Source: Escherichia phage 6948. Taken from it: a DNA stretch of 44,545 nt. Positions within the stretch are counted from its first letter, which is position 1, and the number at the start of each line of letters is the position of its first letter. The position numbers and the translations under genes are program-made. The notes below the pieces were generated by a model. The model made no database searches. It worked only from the letters and a program-made list of their open reading frames with translations, and had not been told where the DNA came from. The stretch lies in sequence record OL362272.1. One strand, given 5' to 3'. Shown piece after piece: positions 3,872 through 32,875 of this stretch.

Positions 3872-3894
3872 ATTTACTGGACACTATAGAAGAG
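3872..3894 (+). promoter_or_regulatory. phage-RNAP promoter upstream of tailspike 1
   Basis: ATTTACTGGACACTATAGAAGAG. Confidence 0.75.
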
Positions 3895-9647: not shown

Positions 9648-10001
9648 ATGGCTATGTCTAATATGACTTACTCTCAGGTTTACAACACCGCTCATGCTGC
9701 ATTAGTTGAACGTATCTGGAATGATGCTATTGATTGTATTGATAACGCACATGATGCAATCCATGATGCGGCGGATAGTGCTGTACCAATCTATTATGCT
9801 GACATCTTCTCCGTGATGGCGAGTGAAGGAATTGATCATTTCTTCGAAGACTCCGGCCTGATGCCAGACACTAAGGATGTAACCGTAGTATTGCAAGCCC
9901 GTATCTATGAGCAACTCACAATTGATCTATGGGAACGTGTTCAGTATATGATTGTTGAATACGTCAACTCCGCCGAATATTTAGAAGAAGAAGAGGAATA
10001 A
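9648..10001 (+). CDS. ocr: Ocr-like DNA mimic, anti-restriction protein (T7 gene 0.3 homologue)
   Basis: 117 aa starting MAMSNMTY..., contains [45 protein letters not shown] and a poly-Glu C-terminus, matching T7 Ocr as I recall it; RBS GAGGA. Confidence 0.85.
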
Positions 10002-14099: not shown

Positions 14100-14107
14100 T
14101 ATTAATA

Positions 14108-14138
14108 GGCCATTCCTTCGGGAGTGGCCTTTTCTTTT
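14108..14138 (+). terminator. intrinsic terminator after the RNAP gene (early terminator analogue)
   Basis: Stem GGCCATTCC / GGAGTGGCC with TTCG tetraloop followed by TTTTCTTTT. Confidence 0.6.
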
Positions 14139-14554: not shown

Positions 14555-14773
14555 ATGGCTAAATACAGAATCAAGACCTGTTTAAATAGTCACGGGCAAG
14601 AGTTCTACGTAGTGCAACGTAAAGTATTAGGCTTAATATGGGTCACTTGTATGATGCCTATTGGCTATACTGATACAGAGGCTATCTTCTGCACCGAAAG
14701 GGATGCAAAGAAGTTTATCTCTAAGCGTAGAAAAGCTGACTCTTACCAACCTAGAATTATTAAGGTGAACTAA
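14555..14773 (+). CDS. hypothetical protein
   Basis: 72 aa ORF, GGAG upstream; stop overlaps the primase/helicase start. Confidence 0.5.
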   Translation: MAKYRIKTCLNSHGQEFYVVQRKVLGLIWVTCMMPIGYTDTEAIFCTERDAKKFISKRRKADSYQPRIIKVN

Positions 14774-16761
14774 TGGCTATTATTAATAACATCCCGTGCC
14801 CTGCCTGCCAGAAGAATGGGCACGATAAATCAGGCAATCATCTCATGATATTTGATGATGGTGCTGGCTATTGTAACCGTGGTCACTTCCATGATAATGG
14901 GAAGCCCTATTACCATAAGCCAGAGGGTGGTATCGAGATAACCGAATTGCCTATTACTGGCAATATCAAATATACACCTTCTCAATTCAAAGAAATGGAG
15001 AAGGAAGGGAAGATAAGCGACCCTAAGCTACGCGCCATCGCTCTTGGTGGTATGCGTATGAAAGACCGTTGGGAGGTCATGAATGAGCAAGAAAGGGCAG
15101 ACCAAGAAGCAGAGTGGAAACTTGATGTTGAATGGTTCCTCACGCTTAAGCGTAAGAACCTTGTTTCCCGACACATTCGCGGCGACATTTGCGCATTGTA
15201 TGATGTACGTGTCGGACACGATGAAGAGGGTAGAGTCTCGCGGCATTACTATCCACGCTTCGAGAAAGGTGAGCTAGTAGGAGCTAAGTGTCGTACCTTA
15301 CCTAAAGATTTCAAGTTTGGACACTTAGGTAAACTCTTTGGTATGCAAGATCTTTTCGGTATGAATACTTTGTCTCACGTGTTAGACAAGGGGAGACGAA
15401 AGGATTGCTTGCTTATTGTAGGCGGTGAACTTGATGCACTAGCAGCGCAGCAGATGCTCCTTGATTCTGCCAAAGGTACTAAGTGGGAAGGTCAGCCATA
15501 CCATGTATGGTCTGTCAATAAAGGTGAGTCTTGCCTTGAAGAGATAGTGCAAAACCGTGAGCACATAGCCCAATTCAAGAAGATTATATGGGGCTTTGAT
15601 GGCGACGAGGTGGGGCAGAAGCAGAACCAACAAGCTGCTCGCCTGTTTCCTGGCAAATCCTACATCCTCGAATATCCATCTGGTTGCAAAGATGCTAACA
15701 AGGCATTGATGGCTGGCAAGGCTAAAGAGTTTGTAGATGCATGGTTTAATGCCAAGTCATCTGATGAAGTCTTTGGTAGCCAGATTAAATCTATCGCATC
15801 TCAAAGGGATAAGCTCAAGGCTGCACGTCCAGAGCAAGGACTATCATGGCCTTGGCCTAAGCTGAACAAGGTAACGCTAGGTATTCGTAAGAACCAACTT
15901 ATCATTGTAGGCGCAGGCTCTGGTGTAGGTAAGACTGAGTTCCTTCGTGAAGTAGTTAAGCACCTCATTGAAGAACACGGTGAATCTGTAGGCATCATTT
16001 CTACAGAAGACCCGATGGTCAAGGTGTCCCGTGCTTTTATCGGCAAGTGGATTGATAAGCGTATTGAGTTACCGCCAACCAACGACCCGAAAGAAGATGG
16101 ATACCGTGAGGTGTTCGACTACACCGAAGAAGAGGCTAACGCCGCCATTGATTATGTAGCTGATACAGGTAAGCTGTTTGTAGCTGACCTAGAGGGTGAC
16201 TATTCGATGGAAAAGGTAGAGCAAACTTGCCTAGAGTTTGAGGCTATGGGCATTTCTAATATCATCATTGATAACTTAACGGGGATTAAATTAGATGAGC
16301 GTGCTTTTGGTGGGAAGGTTGGTGCACTTGATGAATGCGTCAAGCGGATTGGTACTATCAAAGACCGACACCCGGTTACTATATTCCTTGTATCACACCT
16401 TACACGTCCTCCGGCAAACCGTACCCAACACGAAGAAGGTGGCGAGGTTATCCTTTCTGACTTCCGAGGTTCAGGCGCTATCGGATTCTGGGCATCTTAC
16501 GCCTTGGGGATTGAGCGTAATACAAGAGCTGAAACGCTTGACGAAAGGACTACCACGTACATCTCATGTGTCAAAGACCGCGACCAAGGTATCTGGACTG
16601 GAACCAAGGTCATGCTTAAGGGTGACATTCAAACCGGACGTTTAATGGAACCACAAGCCCGTACTAAGTCATTTGACACCGGCGAAGCAAGGCAACAAGA
16701 AGTACCGGATTTACCGGACACTATAGAAGAGACTAACTTCGATGAAGAAAGTGAGTTCTGA
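14773..16761 (+). CDS. bifunctional DNA primase/helicase (gp4-like)
   Basis: 662 aa; N-terminal zinc ribbon CPACQ...CNRGH, central TOPRIM-like region, Walker A GAGSGVGKT, Walker B IIIDNL; acidic C-terminus ending ...DEESEF. Confidence 0.9.
   Translation: MAIINNIPCPACQKNGHDKSGNHLMIFDDGAGYCNRGHFHDNGKPYYHKPEGGIEITELPITGNIKYTPSQFKEMEKEGKISDPKLRAIALGGMRMKDRWEVMNEQERADQEAEWKLDVEWFLTLKRKNLVSRHIRGDICALYDVRVGHDEEGRVSRHYYPRFEKGELVGAKCRTLPKDFKFGHLGKLFGMQDLFGMNTLSHVLDKGRRKDCLLIVGGELDALAAQQMLLDSAKGTKWEGQPYHVWSVNKGESCLEEIVQNREHIAQFKKIIWGFDGDEVGQKQNQQAARLFPGKSYILEYPSGCKDANKALMAGKAKEFVDAWFNAKSSDEVFGSQIKSIASQRDKLKAARPEQGLSWPWPKLNKVTLGIRKNQLIIVGAGSGVGKTEFLREVVKHLIEEHGESVGIISTEDPMVKVSRAFIGKWIDKRIELPPTNDPKEDGYREVFDYTEEEANAAIDYVADTGKLFVADLEGDYSMEKVEQTCLEFEAMGISNIIIDNLTGIKLDERAFGGKVGALDECVKRIGTIKDRHPVTIFLVSHLTRPPANRTQHEEGGEVILSDFRGSGAIGFWASYALGIERNTRAETLDERTTTYISCVKDRDQGIWTGTKVMLKGDIQTGRLMEPQARTKSFDTGEARQQEVPDLPDTIEETNFDEESEF
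16709..16731 (+). promoter_or_regulatory. phage-RNAP promoter inside the 3' end of the primase/helicase gene
   Basis: ATTTACCGGACACTATAGAAGAG. Confidence 0.7.
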
Positions 16762-21650: not shown

Positions 21651-21672
21651 TTTACCGGACACTATAGAAGGA
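21650..21672 (+). promoter_or_regulatory. phage-RNAP promoter
   Basis: ATTTACCGGACACTATAGAAGGA. Confidence 0.75.
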
Positions 21673-21736: not shown

Positions 21737-22114
21737 ATGTCTATGGTAACTACTCTGGTATTTGTAGCTCAATACTTTCGTGGTCTGGCTAATAAGTTCA
21801 AGTCCAAGGCTATCAAAGCTATTGAGTCTCGCATCGAGGCAGTACAGGCAGAGCAAGTTAAAGTTGAAGAACATCGTAGTTCTCAAATGATTGACTGCCA
21901 TAACCGCTACTATGCATCTCGTGATGACCTTAATGCACGCCAAGTCAAAGAGGTTGAAGAGATGCTGGCACGTCACCAGCAAGAGCGCGACAGCCTGAAA
22001 GCTGAATTTGAAGAGAACAAGGCATCCATCGCCCTTGTACATCAAGCCGCATCTGACAACCTGAAGAAAGAGATTGTTATGCTGGAAATTGAGTTAGACA
22101 ACCTGACCAAATAA
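21737..22114 (+). CDS. hypothetical coiled-coil protein
   Basis: 125 aa, RBS TAGGAG; heptad-like charged sequence. Confidence 0.5.
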   Translation: MSMVTTLVFVAQYFRGLANKFKSKAIKAIESRIEAVQAEQVKVEEHRSSQMIDCHNRYYASRDDLNARQVKEVEEMLARHQQERDSLKAEFEENKASIALVHQAASDNLKKEIVMLEIELDNLTK

Positions 22115-22135
22115 TTACTGGACACTATAGAACAA
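22113..22135 (+). promoter_or_regulatory. phage-RNAP promoter upstream of the SSB-like gene
   Basis: AATTACTGGACACTATAGAACAA. Confidence 0.7.
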
Positions 22136-22191: not shown

Positions 22192-22998
22192 ATGGCACGT
22201 GGTGATTTTGATTTTGGTGCTCAGGTTACTAAAGCTGAAGGTAAGGTTTTTAAGAACCCTGAAGTTGGCGATCATGAAGCAGTAATCTCTGGCATCATTC
22301 ATGTGGGTTCCTTCCAAGATATCTTTAAGAAAGGTAATACCACTGAAGTTAAGAAGCCAGCAAACTTTGTTCTTGTTAAGATTGTACTGATGGGTGACGA
22401 TGACAAGAACGAAGATGATTCTCGCATGGAACAGTGGATGGCTGTGCCTCTGAAGTCTGGTGACAAGGCAACCTTGACTAAGTTCCTGAATGCAGTTGAC
22501 CCTAAAGAGCTGCTTGGTGGTTTCGATGACTTCATCGGTGAATGCCTGACTGCAACTATGGTTGGCTCTGGCGACAAGAATGATGATGGTACTTTCAAGT
22601 ATGTTAACTGGAAAGGCTTTGGCGGTATGCCTGATAAGTTGAAGAAGCTTGTACTGGCTCAGGTAGAAGAGGAAGGTCTGTCTATGACAGGTCATATCAC
22701 CTTCGACAAGCTGACCAAAGAAATCCTTGATGACATTCCTGCTAACTTGGTGCGTCAATACTTCCTTAATGAAACACCTCGTGGTAAGAACCTGTCTGTT
22801 GCTGGTTCTCACGTAGAAGCAATCATTAAAGCTGCTCGTGAAGAAGACCCAGAGTGGAAGAAAGCCAAGAAGAAAGATGACGAGGATGCTACTCCAGCTA
22901 ATCGTAAATCTCTGGATACTGGAGAGTCTGTTCCACAGGAAGTACCTGAAGCAGAAGATACTCCTGCACCGGAGATGGATGAGGACGCGGAATATTAA
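22192..22998 (+). CDS. putative single-stranded DNA-binding protein (acidic C-terminal tail)
   Basis: 268 aa, RBS CAGGAG; position between DNAP and exonuclease; highly acidic C-terminus ending DEDAEY, like the gp2.5-type tail. No direct sequence similarity to T7 gp2.5 recognised. Confidence 0.5.
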   Translation: MARGDFDFGAQVTKAEGKVFKNPEVGDHEAVISGIIHVGSFQDIFKKGNTTEVKKPANFVLVKIVLMGDDDKNEDDSRMEQWMAVPLKSGDKATLTKFLNAVDPKELLGGFDDFIGECLTATMVGSGDKNDDGTFKYVNWKGFGGMPDKLKKLVLAQVEEEGLSMTGHITFDKLTKEILDDIPANLVRQYFLNETPRGKNLSVAGSHVEAIIKAAREEDPEWKKAKKKDDEDATPANRKSLDTGESVPQEVPEAEDTPAPEMDEDAEY

Positions 22999-23007
22999 GG
23001 AGAAAGG

Positions 23008-23226
23008 ATGAAAGTACAAATCGTAACCCTGCACTGCAAGAAAGGTATCACAACGCTAGGAGGTGGCACTTTTCACTCCTTCTCTGAAGGGGACACATAT
23101 GCTGACCTGCACTACATCTGGCGCGACGGACAGCACGTGGTGAACTACAGCGACCCAGCTACGGGGAAACGCCACGGCGTATCGCTTCCGGCGCATGACA
23201 TTGCTCAGGTGAACACAGTTTTATAA
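23008..23226 (+). CDS. hypothetical protein
   Basis: 72 aa, RBS AAGGAG. Confidence 0.4.
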   Translation: MKVQIVTLHCKKGITTLGGGTFHSFSEGDTYADLHYIWRDGQHVVNYSDPATGKRHGVSLPAHDIAQVNTVL

Positions 23227-23227
23227 A

Positions 23228-23243
23228 GTCTCACGTGTGAGAC
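23228..23243. repeat. conserved palindrome GTCTCACGTGTGAGAC (copy 5)
   Basis: Perfect 16-mer immediately after the 23226 stop and upstream of promoter 23259. Confidence 0.8.
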
Positions 23244-23258
23244 AAATCGGTGTCCGGT

Positions 23259-23281
23259 ATTTACTGGACACTATAGAAGAG
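23259..23281 (+). promoter_or_regulatory. phage-RNAP promoter upstream of the 123-aa acidic protein
   Basis: ATTTACTGGACACTATAGAAGAG. Confidence 0.75.
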
Positions 23282-23331
23282 AAGAATTTTAATCGGCGAT
23301 AATGCCATAACCAACAAAAGGAGAATTTAAT

Positions 23332-23703
23332 ATGTTCAAGATTGAAACTATCGTAAACCGTGTTGTTAAAGGTGCTGCTCTGGTATCCGTTGAGTCTTTC
23401 ATTATCGTCGATGAAGCTGATCAACTGGTAGCTGGTACTAAGGCTTACGATACCCGTGAAGAAGCTCAGGCTAAGATTGACAGCATGGGTAACTTCGCTG
23501 CTGGTCTGGAGTTCGCTCGTGCTTGCTTCCCTGAGCAGGCTGACAAAGCTCAGATTGGTAAGGCTAATATCGTAGCTGAATATCTGGATTGGGTAGCTGC
23601 TGGTAAACCAGTGAAAGAAGTTAAGGCTGCTGAAGAAGCTGAAGATCCAGCAGAAGAAGTAGCTGCACCGGAAACTCCGGTAAGTGAAGAAGAAGAGTTT
23701 TAA
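23332..23703 (+). CDS. hypothetical acidic protein with its own promoter and terminator
   Basis: 123 aa, RBS AAAGGAG; biased codon usage like the capsid gene; C-terminus ...EEVAAPETPVSEEEEF; flanked by promoter 23259-23281 and terminator 23710-23742. Confidence 0.6.
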   Translation: MFKIETIVNRVVKGAALVSVESFIIVDEADQLVAGTKAYDTREEAQAKIDSMGNFAAGLEFARACFPEQADKAQIGKANIVAEYLDWVAAGKPVKEVKAAEEAEDPAEEVAAPETPVSEEEEF

Positions 23704-23709
23704 TTGATG

Positions 23710-23742
23710 CCCTGTCTGCCTTAGTGTAGGCAGGGTCTTTTG
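23710..23742 (+). terminator. intrinsic terminator
   Basis: 10-bp stem CCCTGTCTGC / GTAGGCAGGG (two G-U pairs in RNA), loop CTTAGT, then TCTTTTG. Confidence 0.55.
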
Positions 23743-23767
23743 CGTAATAGTTATTGGAGAATGAATT

Positions 23768-24058
23768 ATGCCGACTATTGAAGAACGTTTCCTGATTCAC
23801 GTAGACTTCTCACCCATACATCTTGGTTATCTTATCAATATTCTCTTAGGAGAGGAGGTTTATCTACATAAGTATCTTCTACCTGAATATGTATGTTTTA
23901 GAGACAAGATACACCCTCTTACTTGGGCGAAAGAATGGCTGCGTGAACATGTGCTGAAGGAGTGGCCTACATGCGACCAAACTTCGACTTCGGAGCTACA
24001 GTATCGGAAGACAATAACCTGTTGCTGTGGCCAACTGAAGGTAATAGAATCGCTTTAA
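23768..24058 (+). CDS. hypothetical protein (overlaps exonuclease start)
   Basis: 96 aa, GGAG upstream; its 3' ~90 nt overlap the exonuclease frame, so extent is uncertain. Confidence 0.25.
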   Translation: MPTIEERFLIHVDFSPIHLGYLINILLGEEVYLHKYLLPEYVCFRDKIHPLTWAKEWLREHVLKEWPTCDQTSTSELQYRKTITCCCGQLKVIESL

Positions 24059-24999
24059 TAGATGCTGACATGTTACCCTACATCGTAGGTTATACAATCA
24101 GTGACATGACTTATGTACGAGCCACAACTCGTGTTAAGTCAGGACAAGTCCCATCAATCAAAGATACACCTGAGTGTAAGCAAGCGTGTGACCGTGTGAA
24201 CTCCTTGCTCAACTCTTGGGTGTATGCAGCAGAGTGTGATGCAGCTAAGTTATTCATGACGAAATCAGAAGCTAACTTCCGTGTTCGCCTAGCCTTCACC
24301 AAGCCTTATAAGGGTCAACGTAAGACCGAGAAGCCTCCGTTCTTCTATGAATTGCGGGAGCATCTCTTAGAGGTTCATGGTGCAATCTTGGCAGATGGAG
24401 AAGAGGCTGATGACCTCATGAGCATTGCACAATGGGACAGCCACCGCCGCTTCCAGCAAGATACAGGTAACGAGTTCCCTATCGGTAGTCCAGAGCATAA
24501 AGCATTCTCTGATACTTGCATCGTTTCCTTGGATAAGGATTTGATGATTGTTCCCGGTTGGCACCTTCAGCCGGGACAAGAGAAGAAATGGGTAGAGCCT
24601 ATGGGTTGGCTTGAGTTACGCCGTAAGGCTAATGGTCAGGTTAAAGACCTTAAAGGTGCTGGCCTCATGTTTCATTATGCACAGATGATTATCGGTGATG
24701 ATATTGATAACTATGCTGGCATACCTGGACGTGGTGCTAAATACGCCTATGATCTTCTCAAAGATTGTAAGACAGAGAAAGAGTTGTACATGGCAGTGCT
24801 TGGTGCTTACAAGGCTAAGTTCGGACATGGACAAGTTAAGATTAAGAATTACCGAGGTGGTTATCGTATCGGCAAGGCTTTTGACCTGATGCTCGAATGT
24901 GGTCGCCTAGCTCACATGGCAAGATTCAAAGGTGATATATGGCGAGCCGATAAGAACCCAATCTTGTGGGGAGATGATGCGGAATGGTTAGCAAATTAA
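23971..24999 (+). CDS. 5'-3' exonuclease (FEN-like, gp6-like)
   Basis: 342 aa from ATG 23971; ALIDADMLPYIVGY, SLDKDLMIVPGW and IGDDIDNYAGIPG resemble flap-endonuclease metal-binding motifs. Confidence 0.8.
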   Translation: MRPNFDFGATVSEDNNLLLWPTEGNRIALIDADMLPYIVGYTISDMTYVRATTRVKSGQVPSIKDTPECKQACDRVNSLLNSWVYAAECDAAKLFMTKSEANFRVRLAFTKPYKGQRKTEKPPFFYELREHLLEVHGAILADGEEADDLMSIAQWDSHRRFQQDTGNEFPIGSPEHKAFSDTCIVSLDKDLMIVPGWHLQPGQEKKWVEPMGWLELRRKANGQVKDLKGAGLMFHYAQMIIGDDIDNYAGIPGRGAKYAYDLLKDCKTEKELYMAVLGAYKAKFGHGQVKIKNYRGGYRIGKAFDLMLECGRLAHMARFKGDIWRADKNPILWGDDAEWLAN

Positions 25000-25394
25000 A
25001 ATCATCGGAGGTAGCAGCTTATAAGAGGGAATTGCTAGAGAAGCAAGGATGGAAGTGCCCCCTATGTGGCGGCAGTCTCAAGGCTGTTACTCCTATAAAC
25101 CGTGTACTTGACCATGACCATGAGACAGGATTCTGCCGTGCTGTTGTATGCCGAGGCTGCAATGGTGCAGAAGGAAAGATTAAGGGTGTTATCTCTGGTT
25201 ATGGTAAGGCTGGTAACAACCGTTACTTCCAGCTTCAATGGTTAGAGCGACTATATGAATACTGGAAGTTACATAGTACGCCTCAGACAGATAAGTTATA
25301 TCACAAACACCAAACGGAGGCAGAGAAGCGCGAGGCTAAGAACCGTAAGGCACGCCTTGCTTATGCAAGAAAGAAGGAGGTTAAAGTTGGGTAA
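24984..25394 (+). CDS. endonuclease VII-type Holliday junction resolvase
   Basis: 136 aa; CPLCGG...LDHDHETGFCRAVVCRGCNGAEGK matches the Endonuclease_7 zinc/HNH-like signature. Confidence 0.8.
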   Translation: MVSKLKSSEVAAYKRELLEKQGWKCPLCGGSLKAVTPINRVLDHDHETGFCRAVVCRGCNGAEGKIKGVISGYGKAGNNRYFQLQWLERLYEYWKLHSTPQTDKLYHKHQTEAEKREAKNRKARLAYARKKEVKVG

Positions 25395-26394
25395 GCTTCG
25401 CAGCTTGTACAAAGACTCCGAGGTACTTGATGCAATCGAGCAAGCTACCGACGAGAAAGGTAATGTTAATTACAATGAGATGGCACGTGTATTATCGTGT
25501 CACCCTGTGGGTAAGAAGATTACCCGCCAGTTGGCTCGATACTGGCATGGTCAATTCAAGAAGACCAAGAAGAATGGTGATTATTACCAGACCCTTCTGC
25601 AAGAAGATAAGCGTATCAAAGAAGAGCGTAAGCTCAGGACTCCTGACCGCTACGAGGATTTGGCTATTGTTCCATTGCCTGACTCGCCTCATCGAAGTGT
25701 ACTGGTGATACCTGATACTCATGCACCTTATGAGCACCCAGATACCCTAGAGTTCCTTGCAGCCGTGGCAGCACGTTACCGTCCAGACACAGTGGTACAC
25801 CTAGGAGATGAGGCAGACAAACATGCCTTGTCATTCCACGATTCGGACCCAAATCTGGATAGTGCTGGCATGGAGTTAGAGAAGGCTCGTATCTTCATGC
25901 ACAAATTGCACAAGATGTTCCCTGTGATGCGCCTGTGTCACTCCAACCACGGCTCTATGCACTTCCGTAAGGCAAGCGCCAAGGGCATCCCTGTGCAATA
26001 CCTGCGCACCTACCGTGAAGTTTTCTTCCCGCAGGGAGGTGGCGACCAGTGGGATTGGCAACATACGCACGTCCTTGAGTTGCCGAATGGTGAACAAGTG
26101 GCATTCAAGCATCAACCTGCTGGCTCTGTCCTAGCAGATGCAGCGCATGAGCGTATGAACCTTGTGTGTGGTCACTTGCACGGTAAGATGTCTGTGGAGT
26201 ACGCACGTAATACACATGAACAGTATTGGGCTGTGCAAGGTGGCTGCTTAATTGATGAGTCATCCCGTGCATTTGCCTATGGTCGTGAGTCTAAATACAA
26301 GCCAGCATTAGGTTGTGTGGTCATTCTGGAGGGTGTGCCTCACATTGTCCCGATGCAAACCAATAGCGACAACCGTTGGATTGGCAAGATTTAG
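25387..26394 (+). CDS. calcineurin-like metallophosphoesterase
   Basis: 335 aa from TTG 25387 with AGGAGG 7 nt upstream; motifs VIPDTHAPYEH (DxH), HLGDEAD (GDxxD), CHSNHG (GNH). Confidence 0.7.
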   Translation: MGKLRSLYKDSEVLDAIEQATDEKGNVNYNEMARVLSCHPVGKKITRQLARYWHGQFKKTKKNGDYYQTLLQEDKRIKEERKLRTPDRYEDLAIVPLPDSPHRSVLVIPDTHAPYEHPDTLEFLAAVAARYRPDTVVHLGDEADKHALSFHDSDPNLDSAGMELEKARIFMHKLHKMFPVMRLCHSNHGSMHFRKASAKGIPVQYLRTYREVFFPQGGGDQWDWQHTHVLELPNGEQVAFKHQPAGSVLADAAHERMNLVCGHLHGKMSVEYARNTHEQYWAVQGGCLIDESSRAFAYGRESKYKPALGCVVILEGVPHIVPMQTNSDNRWIGKI

Positions 26395-26999: not shown

Positions 27000-27947
27000 A
27001 TGAATATCTTTGAGTTCCTAGGTCTTCCAGAAGATCACCGCAATCACCCATTCATGCTGGTGAAGCATCGCGGTGAAGTTCCTGAGAAGAAATTAACTTT
27101 TCCATGTTATGCACAGGTGAAACGAGATGGAATATTCAGTGCTGTTGTGGTGCGTAATGATGGTGCTGTTGCCATCTTTGGTCGTACTGGTAAGAAGCTC
27201 GCAAATGTTGAATCCTTGGAAAAGACATTTAGTGTATTTCCTGTCGGGTTGTATCTTGGTGAGTTGCAATCTATGGCTGTTGATGTTTATCTTGAAGCTC
27301 TGTCAGGAGTGGTAAACCCTAATCGTACAGAGCCACTTGACTTCATAGGCCAGCAGATTAAAGACAACCTGTATATCGACTTCTTCGATATGTTAACTAT
27401 TAAGGCATTCCATGATGGATTCACTGATGTTTCTTATCTCAAACGTTACGATGCTTTACATCGTCGCATCGGCACTCATCTTAGCGGGTACAACGCTATT
27501 CTTCCTATTACTCCTTGCCATAATGAGCGAGAGGTTGAAGCGTTTGCTCAAGAGCAAATAGATGCAGGCAGAGAAGGTGCGGTATTTAAACTTGACGTGG
27601 AGTACGAAAGTGGGCACAAGGGCTATCGTCAAACGAAGATCGTTCGTATGGTATCTTATGACCTCACCTGCATTGGGTGGGAGGAAGGAAAAGGTAAGTA
27701 TAAAGGTAAAGTAGCTAATTTAATCTTTAAATGGAAAGGTGGTAAGTCCGTTAAGGCTATGCTGGGGCGTGGCTGGTCACATGAGGATGCAGCACAGATG
27801 TATCACGATATTAAGCACGGTGGCGAACTGAACGTCATTGGGAAGATCTTCGCTGTCAAGGCGTTGCAGGAATCTAGCAAGGGAGTCCTGAGACTTCCCA
27901 AGGTTTCTGAATTACGCCACGATAAGGAGGTTCCTGATGTTTATTGA
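27000..27947 (+). CDS. ATP-dependent DNA ligase
   Basis: 315 aa; adenylation motif I AQVKRDGIF (KxDG), motif EGAVFK, C-terminal LRLPKVSELRHDK. Confidence 0.85.
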   Translation: MNIFEFLGLPEDHRNHPFMLVKHRGEVPEKKLTFPCYAQVKRDGIFSAVVVRNDGAVAIFGRTGKKLANVESLEKTFSVFPVGLYLGELQSMAVDVYLEALSGVVNPNRTEPLDFIGQQIKDNLYIDFFDMLTIKAFHDGFTDVSYLKRYDALHRRIGTHLSGYNAILPITPCHNEREVEAFAQEQIDAGREGAVFKLDVEYESGHKGYRQTKIVRMVSYDLTCIGWEEGKGKYKGKVANLIFKWKGGKSVKAMLGRGWSHEDAAQMYHDIKHGGELNVIGKIFAVKALQESSKGVLRLPKVSELRHDKEVPDVY

Positions 27948-28062
27948 TTTGAACGAAAAACAGCTTGAATTGTTAATAGAAGCCATTGAGCAATACTATT
28001 ACATGTGGGGCTATCAGTCAGAAGAATTAGACTCCTTATATTCACAACTAAAAGGGGGTTAA
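27937..28062 (+). CDS. small hypothetical protein
   Basis: 41 aa, RBS AAGGAGG; overlaps the ligase stop. Confidence 0.25.
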   Translation: MFIDLNEKQLELLIEAIEQYYYMWGYQSEELDSLYSQLKGG

Positions 28063-28064
28063 TT

Positions 28065-28262
28065 ATGTCTTTTGATTCTATGAAGGCAACTCGTGCTGTT
28101 GAGGTAGCAGAGGCCATCTTCGAAACTCTATCCTGTGGCATGGAAGTGCCATATACTTTACTGGCTGATGCAGAAGAACTTGGTCTTTCTGTAGAAGCTA
28201 TCCAAGAGAAGGTTGACGAATTATATGGTACAGACGAAGAAGAAACCGACGATTTCATTTGA
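28065..28262 (+). CDS. small acidic hypothetical protein
   Basis: 65 aa, RBS AAAGGGGG; acidic C-terminus TDEEETDDFI. Confidence 0.4.
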   Translation: MSFDSMKATRAVEVAEAIFETLSCGMEVPYTLLADAEELGLSVEAIQEKVDELYGTDEEETDDFI

Positions 28263-31550: not shown

Positions 31551-31573
31551 ATTTACTGGACACTATAGAAGGG
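31551..31573 (+). promoter_or_regulatory. phage-RNAP promoter upstream of the major capsid gene
   Basis: ATTTACTGGACACTATAGAAGGG, followed by strong RBS. Confidence 0.8.
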
Positions 31574-32832: not shown

Positions 32833-32840
32833 TACCTATG

Positions 32841-32875
32841 CCCTATCTACCTTGCGTAGGTAGGGTTCTTTTTGT
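32841..32875 (+). terminator. intrinsic terminator after the capsid gene
   Basis: 10-bp stem CCCTATCTAC / GTAGGTAGGG, loop CTTGC, then TTCTTTTTG; near-identical architecture to the 23710 terminator. Confidence 0.6.

What the first reader, a model, noticed from the sequence alone, without database searches (positions are those of the whole stretch)
23259..23742. Highly expressed 123-aa acidic protein as an autonomous promoter-to-terminator unit, with an aromatic-terminated acidic tail
The gene at 23332-23703 has its own consensus promoter, a strong RBS, capsid-like codon usage and a dedicated terminator. Its C-terminus (...SEEEEF) resembles the acidic, Phe-terminated tails that T7 gp2.5 and gp4 use to dock onto the DNA polymerase. 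In this window the primase/helicase (...DEESEF) and the SSB-like protein (...DEDAEY) end the same way. The protein could be an additional replisome-docking factor, or an abundant DNA-mimic or host-takeover protein.
Basis: partly seen in the sequence, partly recalled or inferred. Interest (0 to 1): 0.6.

Follow-up and report, generated by a model that had tools for sequence, protein, structure and literature searches.

The report
Abundant phage protein with docking tail
A small, very strongly expressed protein of unknown function in a K1-5/SP6-type phage carries the same acidic, aromatic-ended tail as the phage's helicase and a second replication-module protein, so it probably plugs into the phage DNA-replication machinery; what its folded part does is still unknown.

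Summary
ORF 23332-23703 is K1-5 gene 18 / SP6 gp20 (PHROG 4429, unknown function) in a K1-5-like Vectrevirus genome. It lies behind one of only two perfect-consensus phage-RNAP promoters and has an AAGGAG Shine-Dalgarno sequence. Its codon optimality is the highest in the genome (Fop 0.76; capsid 0.67). A hairpin terminator follows that is a paralogue of the capsid terminator. This layout and the capsid-like codon use recur in related phages of two subfamilies, although their promoter sequences differ completely.

The protein has a ~93-aa alpha/beta core without sequence or fold relatives, a variable disordered linker, and an invariant ...SEEEEF tip. The tips of gp18, gp16 and the primase-helicase are more alike within a genome than between genomes. 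In Aeromonas phage HJG all three end AAY/ASY, encoded by different codons. This argues for one shared phage-encoded receptor, by T7 analogy the DNA polymerase.

Docking and the role of the core are untested, and some divergent homologues lack the tail. The unit is not fully autonomous: two upstream promoters feed it, and the downstream nuclease genes need terminator read-through. A DNA-mimic reading is not supported. Verdict: new variant of a known kind, moderate interest.

The parts
23260..23281 (+). Phage-RNAP (SP6-type) promoter, a perfect match to the window consensus. The inferred +1 is the G at 23276.
   Evidence: It is identical to the site at 3873 and differs by 1 mismatch from the capsid promoter at 31552. 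Its spacing to the ATG equals that of the capsid promoter.
23318..23323 (+). Shine-Dalgarno sequence AAGGAG, 8 nt upstream of the ATG.
23332..23703 (+). CDS of the 123-aa protein = K1-5 gene 18 / SP6 gp20 / K1E gp29; PHROG 4429, 'unknown function'.
   Evidence: 203 homologues in the word-indexed search. 28 matches at E<=0.001 among 50%-identity cluster representatives, two of them spurious.
23332..23610 (+). Folded core, aa 1-93: beta-hairpin 3-26, then helices 42-51, 55-65 and 71-89. Nearly invariant residues are K37, A45, G58, K77-A78-N79, A82, W87 and G91.
   Evidence: AF2 model with pLDDT >90 over the core; alignment A2. No fold neighbour in PDB or BFVD.
23611..23679 (+). Disordered Ala/Glu/Pro-rich linker, aa 94-116, variable in sequence and length.
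   Evidence: Alignments A1 and A2. pLDDT 53-57. Net charge of linker plus tip is -10.
23680..23700 (+). Invariant C-terminal tip VSEEEEF, aa 117-123: the putative docking motif.
   Evidence: Invariant in A1. 120 of 120 close homologues end EEEEF or AEEEF.
23709..23741 (+). Intrinsic terminator: 11-bp stem, 6-nt loop, then CTTTT. It is a paralogue of the capsid-gene terminator.
   Evidence: Alignment with 32840-32866 shows compensatory stem changes. A terminator is annotated at the same place in phage R4596. Strong hairpins follow the homologue in most of the 18 phages compared.
22192..22998 (+). gp16 (SP6 gp18), 268 aa, with its own promoter at 22114 and the tail ...MDEDAEY (22978-22995). It is a candidate SSB/annealing protein and shares the tail type.
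   Evidence: It has no homology to T7 gp2.5.
14773..16761 (+). Primase/helicase, 662 aa, tail ...NFDEESEF (16741-16758). It shares the tail type.
21651..21672 (+). Upstream phage promoter (gene 15). Its transcripts also run to the terminator at 23709.
   Evidence: No + strand terminator lies between it and 23709.
22114..22135 (+). Upstream phage promoter (gp16). Its transcripts also run to the terminator at 23709.
23971..26394 (+). Exonuclease, endonuclease VII and metallophosphoesterase genes. They lie between the gp18 terminator and the next promoter (26390), so they are expressed by read-through.
23228..23243 (.). 16-bp palindrome GTCTCACGTGTGAGAC between the gp17 stop and the gp18 promoter. 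It is one of 8 copies in the window; its link to the unit is not established.

Best explanation
The ORF is a real middle-class (DNA-metabolism) gene, and the phage is built to express it at capsid-like levels.

Expression (shown from sequence):
- Three phage-RNAP promoters in series (21651, 22114 and the perfect-consensus 23260) feed transcripts into the gene.
- A strong Shine-Dalgarno sequence and the best codon usage in the genome drive translation.
- A Tphi-like hairpin, a paralogue of the capsid terminator, ends most transcripts just after the stop codon. The fraction that reads through supplies the downstream exonuclease, endonuclease VII and phosphoesterase genes at a lower level.

Protein anatomy (shown by prediction and alignment): a ~93-aa alpha/beta core of no recognisable fold, a ~23-aa variable disordered acidic linker, and an invariant acidic tip ending in Phe.

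Mechanism (inferred): the tip is a short linear docking motif of the same class as the tips of the phage's primase-helicase and gp16. It binds the same phage-encoded site. By analogy with T7 gp2.5 and gp4, that site is a basic patch on the DNA polymerase, or possibly the DNA-binding cleft of gp16. The flexible linker then tethers many copies of the core domain to replication and recombination intermediates.

My best guess is that the core is an abundant DNA- or nucleoprotein-binding accessory of the gp16-exonuclease-endonuclease VII module. Its biochemical activity is not known.
For: Expression unit:
- Promoter, Shine-Dalgarno sequence, codon bias and terminator are all present.
- The terminator is paralogous to the capsid terminator, and the promoter-to-ATG spacing equals that of the capsid gene.
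- In 13 of 14 related phages the regions upstream of the gp18 homologue and of the capsid gene share a 17-mer with 0-1 mismatch. In most of them it recurs 7-10 times per locus, as that phage's own promoter would; the sequence differs from phage to phage.
- A strong hairpin, with a T-run in most, follows the homologue in most of 18 phages.
- Capsid-referenced CAI of the homologue is 0.66-0.84 in 14 phages, against 0.48-0.62 for helicase, polymerase and exonuclease.

Synteny: the order DNAP ... gp16 ... gp18 - exonuclease - endonuclease VII is conserved in Molineuxvirinae, Colwellvirinae and metagenomic relatives.

Tail:
- Invariant tip behind a variable linker, and the tail region is modelled with low confidence (pLDDT 53-57).
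- Tips of gp18, gp16 and the helicase are more similar within genomes than between them. Permutation p values range from 0.0001 to 0.03 for the last 3-5 residues.
- Concerted cases: HJG has AAY/AAY/ASY; Njord has SFS/TFD/TFE; in Uliginvirus the aromatic residue of gp16 and gp18 is followed by 1-2 extra residues.
- The codons differ, so selection acts on the peptide and gene conversion is not the cause.

T7 precedent: the gp2.5 and gp4 tails were read from the T7 record. Their role in contacting polymerase and helicase is summarised in PMC10359462.
Against: - No interaction was tested.
- Some divergent homologues lack the tail although the gp16 and helicase of the same phage keep theirs (L030, L031). 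Seven of 26 cluster representatives also lack it, though some of these are fragments. The core therefore works without docking in some lineages.
- Within Uliginvirus the gp18 tip does not track the helicase tip exactly.
- The permutation test is not corrected for phylogeny.
- A protein made in great excess with the same tail would compete with the helicase and gp16 for a single site. That fits a regulator or decoy as well as it fits an accessory factor.
- The receptor is unidentified. In the only BLAST-alignable stretch, the T7 sequence KWKRRW aligns to WGRIRM in this polymerase, so only two basic residues remain. From memory this T7 stretch is the 'front basic patch' that receives the gp4 tail.
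- gp16 is not demonstrably an SSB.
Confidence: 0.45

Rival explanations
1. gp18 is itself the phage's single-stranded-DNA-binding protein, a small SSB with a new non-OB fold. gp16 would then be the annealing/recombination protein working with the adjacent exonuclease and endonuclease VII. The acidic aromatic tail plays the classic SSB-tail role.
For: - Capsid-like expression signals fit a protein needed in stoichiometric amounts.
- An acidic tail with a terminal aromatic residue is the hallmark of T7 gp2.5 and of bacterial SSBs (PMC10359462).
- The gene sits inside a gp16-exonuclease-endonuclease VII module.
- No other SSB homologue was identified among the proteins scanned around the gene.
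- The core has conserved Lys, Asn and aromatic positions: K37, K77, N79, Y84, W87.
- The T7 gp2.5 core is also mildly acidic at -2, so a core charge of -4 does not exclude DNA binding.
Against: - There is no sequence relation to any SSB family.
- Tail-less homologues exist.
- gp16, at 268 aa with its own promoter, high CAI and the same tail, is at least as good an SSB candidate.
Confidence: 0.15
2. gp18 is a host-directed takeover protein. It would be an abundant decoy whose acidic tail mimics ssDNA or the host SSB C-terminal tip, or whose core binds an abundant host protein. Possible targets are a nucleoid protein (as T7 gp5.5 binds H-NS), RecBCD (as gp5.9 does) or host RNAP (as gp2 does). 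The resemblance to the replisome tails would then be incidental.
For: - High abundance fits titration of an abundant host target.
- The gene lies between the DNA polymerase and exonuclease genes, where T7 keeps gp5.5, gp5.7 and gp5.9.
- Homologues that lack the tail show the core has a function of its own.
Against: - hhalign finds no homology to T7 gp5.5, gp5.7, gp5.9 or any other T7 class II protein encoded between genes 2.5 and 6.7 (probability <=2.2%; T7 gp2 was not in the set).
- The charge sits on a disordered tail, not on a rigid DNA-like surface.
- The tips vary between phage lineages in step with other phage proteins. From my own knowledge, the SSB tip of these gammaproteobacterial hosts is near-constant (...DDDIPF).
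- Tips with 1-2 residues after the aromatic, or ending AAY, would not present a free C-terminal Phe carboxylate.
Confidence: 0.15
3. The tail is a non-specific acidic appendage (for solubility, as an entropic bristle, or for autoinhibition). The main point of the unit would then be transcriptional: a strong promoter plus a leaky terminator that sets a low dose of the downstream nucleases. In that case gp18's own role is minor or unrelated to replication.
For: - Downstream nuclease genes have no promoter of their own and must be expressed by read-through.
- The same design is used for the capsid gene and the genes after it.
- Tail-less family members exist.
Against: - A non-specific acidic tail would not keep an invariant tip with a terminal aromatic residue behind a freely varying linker. 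It would not change in concert with two other proteins either.
- The core is highly conserved, with 57-98% identity across Molineuxvirinae and recognisable homologues in Colwellvirinae. The gene also has the best codon usage in the genome. Neither is expected for a mere spacer ORF.
Confidence: 0.2
4. gp18 is a virion or morphogenetic protein (decoration, scaffold-like or internal). That would explain its capsid-like expression.
For: Its promoter, spacing, codon usage and terminator are all of the capsid-gene type.
Against: - It lies in the DNA-metabolism block, 5 kb upstream of the portal gene.
- PHROG 4429 carries no structural annotation.
- Its tail matches those of replication proteins.
Confidence: 0.03

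Closest known systems
T7 gp2.5 (ssDNA-binding protein) acidic C-terminal tail
   Same: A flexible, strongly acidic C-terminal segment ending in an aromatic residue. T7 gp2.5 ends ...EEADEDGDF and this protein ends ...VSEEEEF. Both are class II genes in the replication module and both show high expression signals. The gp2.5 tail is reported to contact polymerase and helicase and to compete with ssDNA for the OB cleft (PMC10359462).
   Different: The folded part is unrelated: hhalign probability is 0.2% and the predicted fold is a hairpin plus three helices, not an OB fold. The protein is half the size. ssDNA binding is unknown.
T7 gp4 primase-helicase C-terminal tail
   Same: An acidic tail ending in Phe (...WSNDTDF). 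The window's own primase-helicase ends ...DEESEF, and its tip resembles the gp18 tip within each genome.
   Different: gp18 has no helicase or primase domain. It is a separate, far more strongly expressed small protein.
Bacterial SSB C-terminal tip (SSB-Ct, ...DDDIPF) as a hub motif
   Same: The general logic is the same: a disordered linker plus an acidic tip ending in Phe, used as a docking peptide (my own knowledge of the SSB interactome).
   Different: Here several different proteins carry the tip, presumably for one receptor, rather than one protein docking many partners. The tips vary by phage lineage (AAY, EFGE, TFE), which argues against mimicry of the constant host tip.
T7 phi10 - gene 10 - Tphi expression unit (capsid gene)
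   Same: A consensus phage promoter, a short leader, a strong Shine-Dalgarno sequence, optimal codons, and a hairpin terminator that is read through to serve downstream genes. In this window the gp18 and capsid units share promoter spacing and a paralogous terminator.
   Different: Here the design is applied to a 123-aa non-structural gene inside the DNA-metabolism block. From memory, T7 has no internal class II terminator of this kind. That a terminator follows this gene was already noted for SP6-type genomes (PMC4837284; R4596 annotation).
T7 gp5.5 (abundant small class II protein, H-NS binder)
   Same: A small protein encoded between the DNA polymerase and exonuclease genes. From memory, gp5.5 is abundantly made.
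   Different: No sequence relation: hhalign probability is 0.1%. T7 gp5.5 has no acidic linker and tail, although it too ends in Phe (...VREVF). gp18 has its own promoter and terminator.
DUF1508 / UPF0339 (YegP-like) small beta-beta-alpha domain
   Different: None of 26 family members hits Pfam DUF1508, even at E<=10. The scores are in the noise range. DUF1508 itself has no known function, so the link would explain nothing.

Membership tests
PHROG 4429 / K1-5 gene 18 - SP6 gp20 family | Full-length sequence match to the family profile | tested here: met
   E 1.9e-57, residues 1-123 on profile positions 1-121 of 121. 98% identity to the closest database proteins. 99% DNA identity to K1-5 and LL11.
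T7-type acidic C-terminal docking tails (gp2.5 / gp4 class) | Strongly acidic C-terminal segment ending in an aromatic residue | tested here: met
   The protein ends ...VSEEEEF and the last 30 residues carry a net charge of -10. The T7 tails were read for comparison.
T7-type acidic C-terminal docking tails (gp2.5 / gp4 class) | Tail is flexible or disordered and separated from the fold by a variable linker | tested here: met
   pLDDT is 53-57 for residues 100-123 against >90 for the core. The linker varies in length and sequence while the tip is invariant.
T7-type acidic C-terminal docking tails (gp2.5 / gp4 class) | Tail binds the phage DNA polymerase (basic patch) and the terminal aromatic residue is required | not testable with these tools
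   No complex prediction or experiment was possible. The only indirect support is that the tips of gp18, gp16 and the helicase are more alike within genomes.
gp2.5 / DUF2815-type OB-fold SSBs | Sequence or profile homology to gp2.5-like SSBs | tested here: not met
   Pfam gives no hit. hhalign of the family against T7 gp2.5 gives probability 0.2%. A PDB profile search gives nothing.
gp2.5 / DUF2815-type OB-fold SSBs | OB-fold (five-stranded beta-barrel) core | tested here: not met
Phage DNA-mimic proteins (Ocr, ArdA, gp5.9 type) | Rigid folded scaffold displaying a dense array of acidic side chains that imitates the DNA backbone | tested here: not met
   The folded core has a net charge of only -4 (0 to -5 across the family). 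Acidity is concentrated in the disordered linker and tail. There is no homology to T7 gp5.9.
DUF1508 / UPF0339 (YegP-like) | Match to Pfam PF07411 or clear structural superposition | tested here: inconclusive
Hairpin (class I, Tphi-like) terminators for T7-type RNA polymerases | Stable GC-rich hairpin directly followed by a U-run, located just after a highly expressed gene | tested here: met
   11-bp stem with 6 GC pairs, then CTTTTG, 5 nt after the stop codon. It is a paralogue of the capsid terminator with compensatory changes. The feature is conserved in position in related phages.
Hairpin (class I, Tphi-like) terminators for T7-type RNA polymerases | Measured partial termination of the phage RNAP | not testable with these tools
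   Read-through is inferred from the absence of any promoter between 23282 and 26389. No transcript data were found.

The most novel reading that the evidence does not exclude
SP6/K1-5-type and Colwellvirinae phages run a multi-client docking system. At least three proteins (primase-helicase, gp16 and gp18), and possibly the ligase and a small gp25-like protein, carry co-evolving acidic, aromatic-ended tips for one receptor on the replisome. gp18 would be a new kind of abundant replisome component with a previously unseen fold. It could be a non-OB ssDNA-binding protein. It could also be a polymerase hand-off or processivity factor doing what host thioredoxin or gp2.5 does in T7.
Probability: 0.22. 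Interest if true: 0.7.

Novelty: new variant of a known kind. Interest (0 to 1): 0.5.

Why it matters
The T7 replisome is the textbook minimal replisome. Its organisation rests on two acidic, Phe-terminated tails, on gp2.5 and gp4, that dock on the polymerase.

The SP6/K1-5 branch is widely used for its RNA polymerase and for therapy against K1 and K5 E. coli, Salmonella, Klebsiella and Vibrio. Its replication proteins are essentially unstudied. Both gp16 and gp18 are 'hypothetical' in every record seen here.

If a third, capsid-level-expressed protein with an unknown fold shares the docking tail, the minimal-replisome picture is incomplete for a large group of phages. It would also supply a concrete, cheap set of experiments: tail peptides, a deltaF mutant and EMSA.

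The conserved promoter-gene-leaky-terminator design further explains how these phages set a large expression ratio between this protein and the potentially toxic nucleases downstream. That is useful for engineering these genomes.

Tried and rejected
Sequence annotation of gp18 gave nothing.
- Pfam returned only noise, NCBIfam nothing, and PHROGs 'unknown function'.
- A PDB profile search returned nothing relevant.
- hhalign against 15 T7 class II proteins (genes 2.5-6.7) gave nothing.

Structure prediction and fold search found no neighbour.
- The first AF2 run, on a shallow alignment, was poor (pLDDT 59.6). The second, with distant homologues, was good for the core (82.8 overall, >90 in the core).
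- Foldseek against PDB gave no hit with E<0.5.
- In BFVD only a family member scored.
- The afdb50 library was unavailable.

Retrieval of more loci was only partly successful.
- The search for related loci on the divergent alignment failed because there was no conserved stretch to back-translate.
- Contigs for the tail-less cluster representatives were too short (0.9-1.4 kb) to read their helicase and gp16 tails.

The test of gp16 as a gp2.5 homologue was negative by Pfam, NCBIfam, a PDB profile search and hhalign. Its whole family is unannotated.

The polymerase comparison was inconclusive. BLAST aligned only the palm and fingers region, so the presence of a thioredoxin-binding-domain equivalent could not be judged.

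Gene conversion as the cause of similar tips was rejected because the codons differ.

Rfam found no RNA family in 23000-24100.

Literature:
- The two primary SP6/K1-5 genome papers (Scholl 2004, Dobbins 2004) are not held.
- No transcriptome, proteome or functional study of this gene was found.
- One search was too broad to be useful.
- A Salmonella defence paper that mentions SP6 concerns only its tailspike.

The 818-aa and 2546-aa 'hits' of the profile search are repeat or low-complexity artefacts.
Full report
**Identity of the window and the gene.** The 601-bp region around the finding is 96-99% identical to Escherichia phages K1-5, LL11 and many 'Vectrevirus' genomes. The window is therefore a K1-5-like member of Autographiviridae, subfamily Molineuxvirinae, permuted relative to the GenBank K1-5 record. 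The ORF 23332-23703 is K1-5 gene 18. It is also SP6 gp20 and K1E PK1Ep29. It matches PHROG 4429 over its full length (E 1.9e-57), a family with no known function. Pfam and NCBIfam give nothing. Every public record seen calls it 'hypothetical protein'.

**Checking the observation.**
- Promoter: the 22-mer TTTACTGGACACTATAGAAGAG at 23260-23281 is an SP6-type phage-RNAP promoter. Nine sites in the window match it with <=3 mismatches, against none in 100 shuffles. Only two sites are perfect, 3873 and 23260.
- Ribosome binding: AAGGAG lies 8 nt before the ATG.
- Codon usage: the fraction of E. coli-optimal codons is 0.758, the highest of 38 genes (capsid 0.666; polymerase, helicase and exonuclease 0.47-0.51). 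CAI with the capsid gene as reference is 0.835, above the capsid scored on itself.
- Terminator: an 11-bp stem plus T-run starts 5 nt after the stop codon. Only two other + strand terminators of that quality exist in the window, after the RNAP gene (14107-14130) and after the capsid gene (32840-32866).
- Relation to the capsid unit: the gp18 and capsid terminators align as paralogues with compensatory stem changes (GCCCTGTCTGCC...GGCAGGGT against GCCCTATCTACC...GGTAGGGT). The two genes also share the same promoter-to-ATG spacing.
A scan of 78 + strand ORFs finds only these three and one 85-aa ORF with an acidic, aromatic C-terminus.

First, expression level is inferred, not measured. Second, the unit is not fully autonomous. 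The promoters at 21651 and 22114 have no terminator before 23709. No promoter exists between 23282 and 26389. The hairpin therefore closes a three-promoter high-expression block (genes 15-18, all with raised Fop). The exonuclease, endonuclease VII and phosphoesterase genes must be served by read-through.

**The design is conserved, not a local accident.** Profile search of 1.84 billion cluster representatives finds only 28 matches at E<=0.001, two of them spurious. tblastn finds homologues in about 200-215 phage genomes of 42-48 kb. The hosts include Escherichia, Salmonella, Klebsiella, Proteus, Erwinia, Pectobacterium, Pantoea, Vibrio, Pseudomonas syringae, Marinomonas, Aeromonas, Shewanella and Edwardsiella. 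The classified records fetched belong to Molineuxvirinae and Colwellvirinae.

The fetched genomes show four recurring features.
- Gene order: DNA polymerase ... gp16 homologue ... gp18 homologue - exonuclease - endonuclease VII is constant. It also holds in four divergent metagenomic phages, where the homologue is only 90-97 aa.
- Promoter: in 13 of 14 phages, the 160 nt upstream of the gp18 homologue and upstream of the capsid gene share a 17-mer with 0-1 mismatch. In most of them it recurs 7-10 times per locus, as that phage's own promoter would, and the sequences differ completely between genera. In phiA318 this site is annotated as promoter phiA54.
- Terminator: a strong hairpin, with a T-run in most, follows the homologue in most of 18 phages. 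In R4596 it is annotated as a terminator. [quoted passage not shown]
- Codon usage: capsid-referenced CAI of the homologue is 0.66-0.84 in 14 phages, against 0.48-0.62 for helicase, polymerase and exonuclease. gp16 is intermediate to high at 0.53-0.76.

**Anatomy of the protein.** With distant homologues in the alignment, AlphaFold2 gives a confident core (pLDDT >90 for residues 1-95). It consists of a beta-hairpin (3-13, 16-26) and helices 42-51, 55-65 and 71-89, followed by a low-confidence tail from about residue 93.
- Across 26 diverse members, the nearly invariant positions are K37, A45, G58, K77-A78-N79, A82, W87 and G91.
- The core is only mildly acidic, at -4 here and 0 to -5 in the family. 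The linker plus tip carries -10 here and about -7 on average.
- Among close homologues the core is almost invariant. The Ala/Glu/Pro linker varies in sequence and length, and the last seven residues VSEEEEF are invariant. All 120 listed homologues end EEEEF or AEEEF.
- Of 26 cluster representatives, 17 end in an aromatic residue and 19 have one within the last three residues. Several of the exceptions are fragments or chimeric assemblies.
- Weak hits of the N-terminal ~50 residues to DUF1508/UPF0339 proteins are not backed by any Pfam match in 26 members.
- hhalign finds no relation to any T7 class II protein encoded between genes 2.5 and 6.7, including gp2.5, gp5.5, gp5.7 and gp5.9.

**The tails of three unrelated proteins go together.** I extracted the C-termini of the gp18, gp16 and primase-helicase homologues from 18 phages, from three further Uliginvirus phages and from four metagenomic loci. 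Most genomes show acidic runs ending in F for all three proteins, with gp16 ending in Y in the K1-5, SP6 and PP1 lineage. Some lineages depart in a concerted way.

| Phage | gp18 | gp16 | Primase-helicase |
|---|---|---|---|
| Aeromonas HJG | ...EDAAY | ...EEAAY | ...EGASY |
| Pseudomonas Njord | ...ESFS | ...QTFD | ...KTFE |
| Alpheus and Achelous | ...SFEG | ...EFGE | ends in Y |
| Marinomonas CB5A | ...EESF | ...ESEF | ...SQEF |

A permutation test compared tips within a genome against tips paired across shuffled genomes. For the last 3-5 residues it gives p = 0.0001-0.0008 for gp18 with gp16, 0.007-0.03 for gp18 with the helicase, and 0.0002-0.001 for gp16 with the helicase. The test does not correct for shared ancestry, so these are not true probabilities.

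The codons encoding the similar tips differ (GCT GCT TAC, GCG GCA TAC and GCA TCC TAT in HJG). This excludes gene conversion and points to selection on the peptides.

The simplest reading is one shared receptor that is phage-encoded, since it changes with phage lineage. In T7, the acidic Phe-terminated tails of gp2.5 (...EEADEDGDF) and gp4 (...WSNDTDF) were read from the T7 record. They are reported to contact the replisome partners, notably the polymerase (PMC10359462; the details of the basic patches are from my own knowledge). By analogy the polymerase is the prime candidate here.

**Limits of the inference.**
- Within Uliginvirus, the number of residues after the aromatic in gp18 does not track the helicase exactly.
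- Two divergent phages have gp18 homologues without the tail (...APVAE and ...RKAKLAA), although their gp16 and helicase keep QEF or DFS/DFG tips. The core therefore has a function that does not need docking.
Its whole family is unannotated. Its SSB identity is plausible from size, promoter, CAI and tail, but unproven.
- In the only stretch where the polymerase aligns to T7 gp5, T7's KWKRRW corresponds to WGRIRM, so the docking surface cannot simply be transferred.

**How it most likely works.**

Shown:
- A real, conserved gene carrying capsid-grade expression signals.
- A terminator that must be leaky to serve the nuclease genes.
- A protein made of a folded core, a flexible acidic linker and a conserved aromatic tip.
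- Tips that co-vary with those of two replication-module proteins.

Inferred:
- The tip is a docking peptide for a replisome site shared with the helicase and gp16.
- The linker tethers many copies of the core to replication and recombination intermediates.
- The core is an abundant DNA- or nucleoprotein-binding accessory of the gp16-exonuclease-endonuclease VII module.

I give the docking mechanism about 0.45. The rivals are as follows.
- gp18 is itself a new-fold SSB (0.15).
- It is a host-directed decoy or inhibitor (0.15). This fits poorly with lineage-specific tips and with a disordered rather than rigid acidic surface.
- The tail is non-specific and the unit is mainly a transcriptional dose-setter (0.2). 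This fits poorly with the invariant tip and the highly conserved core.
- It is a virion protein (0.03).

**Comparison with the known, and novelty.** The gene, its promoter and its terminator already sit in public records, and the terminator position has been noted before. The acidic, aromatic tail as a replisome docking device is textbook T7 biology.

As far as the held literature and databases show, four things are not described:
- A third, non-homologous, capsid-level-expressed protein carries this tail.
- The tail type is shared and co-varies among at least three proteins across two subfamilies.
- The protein's core has no fold relatives.
- Its promoter-gene-terminator design is conserved despite complete promoter turnover.

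I file it as a new variant of a known kind. Interest is moderate at 0.5: not startling to a T7 specialist, but it names a concrete missing component of an unstudied replisome and is cheap to test.

Noticed in passing
window 8631, 14173, 14354, 15372, 16783, 17927, 23228, 39714 (16 bp each): A perfect 16-bp palindrome, GTCTCAC(A/G)(T/C)GTGAGAC, occurs 8 times in the window against 0.5 expected. Almost all copies are intergenic. Three lie just upstream of a phage promoter (14173 before P14192, 14354 before P14376, 23228 before the gp18 promoter). The same palindrome sits at the same place in K1-5 and R4596. It occurs 4 times in Erwinia phage Era103 and 5 times in metagenomic locus L030. Its function is unknown; it could be an operator or an RNA processing or stability hairpin.
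   Followed up: partly
window 27000-27947 (DNA ligase) and 28005-28262 (85-aa ORF); L006 19109-20107; L010 19089-20039; L009 21328-21552: The ligase ends ...RHDKEVPDVY, and the ligases of phiA318, HJG and Uliginvirus end ...DF. The 85-aa ORF ends ...TDEEETDDFI, and Era103 gp30 ends ...GDEDEQDY. More proteins may therefore use the acidic, aromatic tip than the three studied.
   Followed up: partly
window 9648-10001: An early-region 117-aa ORF is hyper-acidic (pI 4.05, net charge -20) and ends ...AEYLEEEEE. It has no NCBIfam hit. It could be an Ocr-like DNA mimic or anti-restriction candidate.
   Followed up: no
window 21737-22114 (K1-5 gene 15): RefSeq and PHROG 7450 call this a 'polysaccharide chain length determinant protein'. 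The only support is a 21-bit coiled-coil-like hit against a 279-bit cutoff (TIGR03007). The gene has its own phage promoter (21651) and high codon optimality (Fop 0.65), so the annotation looks unreliable.
   Followed up: partly
window 23768-24058 (K1-5 gene 19, 'DNA repair protein'): This ORF overlaps the start of the exonuclease gene in another frame. It has the lowest codon optimality in the genome (Fop 0.39) and is not annotated in SP6, PM85 or R4596. It may not be a real gene. The indel seen in many megablast hits probably lies in this terminator-to-exonuclease spacer; it was not mapped.
   Followed up: no
window 22192-22998 (gp16) and homologues (alignment A3): The 268-aa protein has its own promoter, high CAI and an acidic tail. 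It belongs to an entirely unannotated family restricted to the same phages. No Pfam, NCBIfam or PDB relation was found, and none to T7 gp2.5. It is a good candidate for structure prediction as the missing SSB or annealing protein.
   Followed up: partly
L014 2473-4458 (SP6 primase/helicase): In the SP6 reference record the helicase ends ...ENTQEFNG instead of ending at the Phe, as in K1-5-like, PM85 and PP1 phages. This may be a real two-residue extension or a sequence or annotation difference.
   Followed up: no
L011 (NC_047746.1, Vibrio phage Vc1): The record's taxonomy line places this 44.5-kb phage in Drexlerviridae/Jhansiroadvirus. Its gene content (single-subunit RNAP, T7-type replication and structural modules, gp16 and gp18 homologues) is that of Autographiviridae/Colwellvirinae. 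This is probably a taxonomy mix-up in the record.
   Followed up: no
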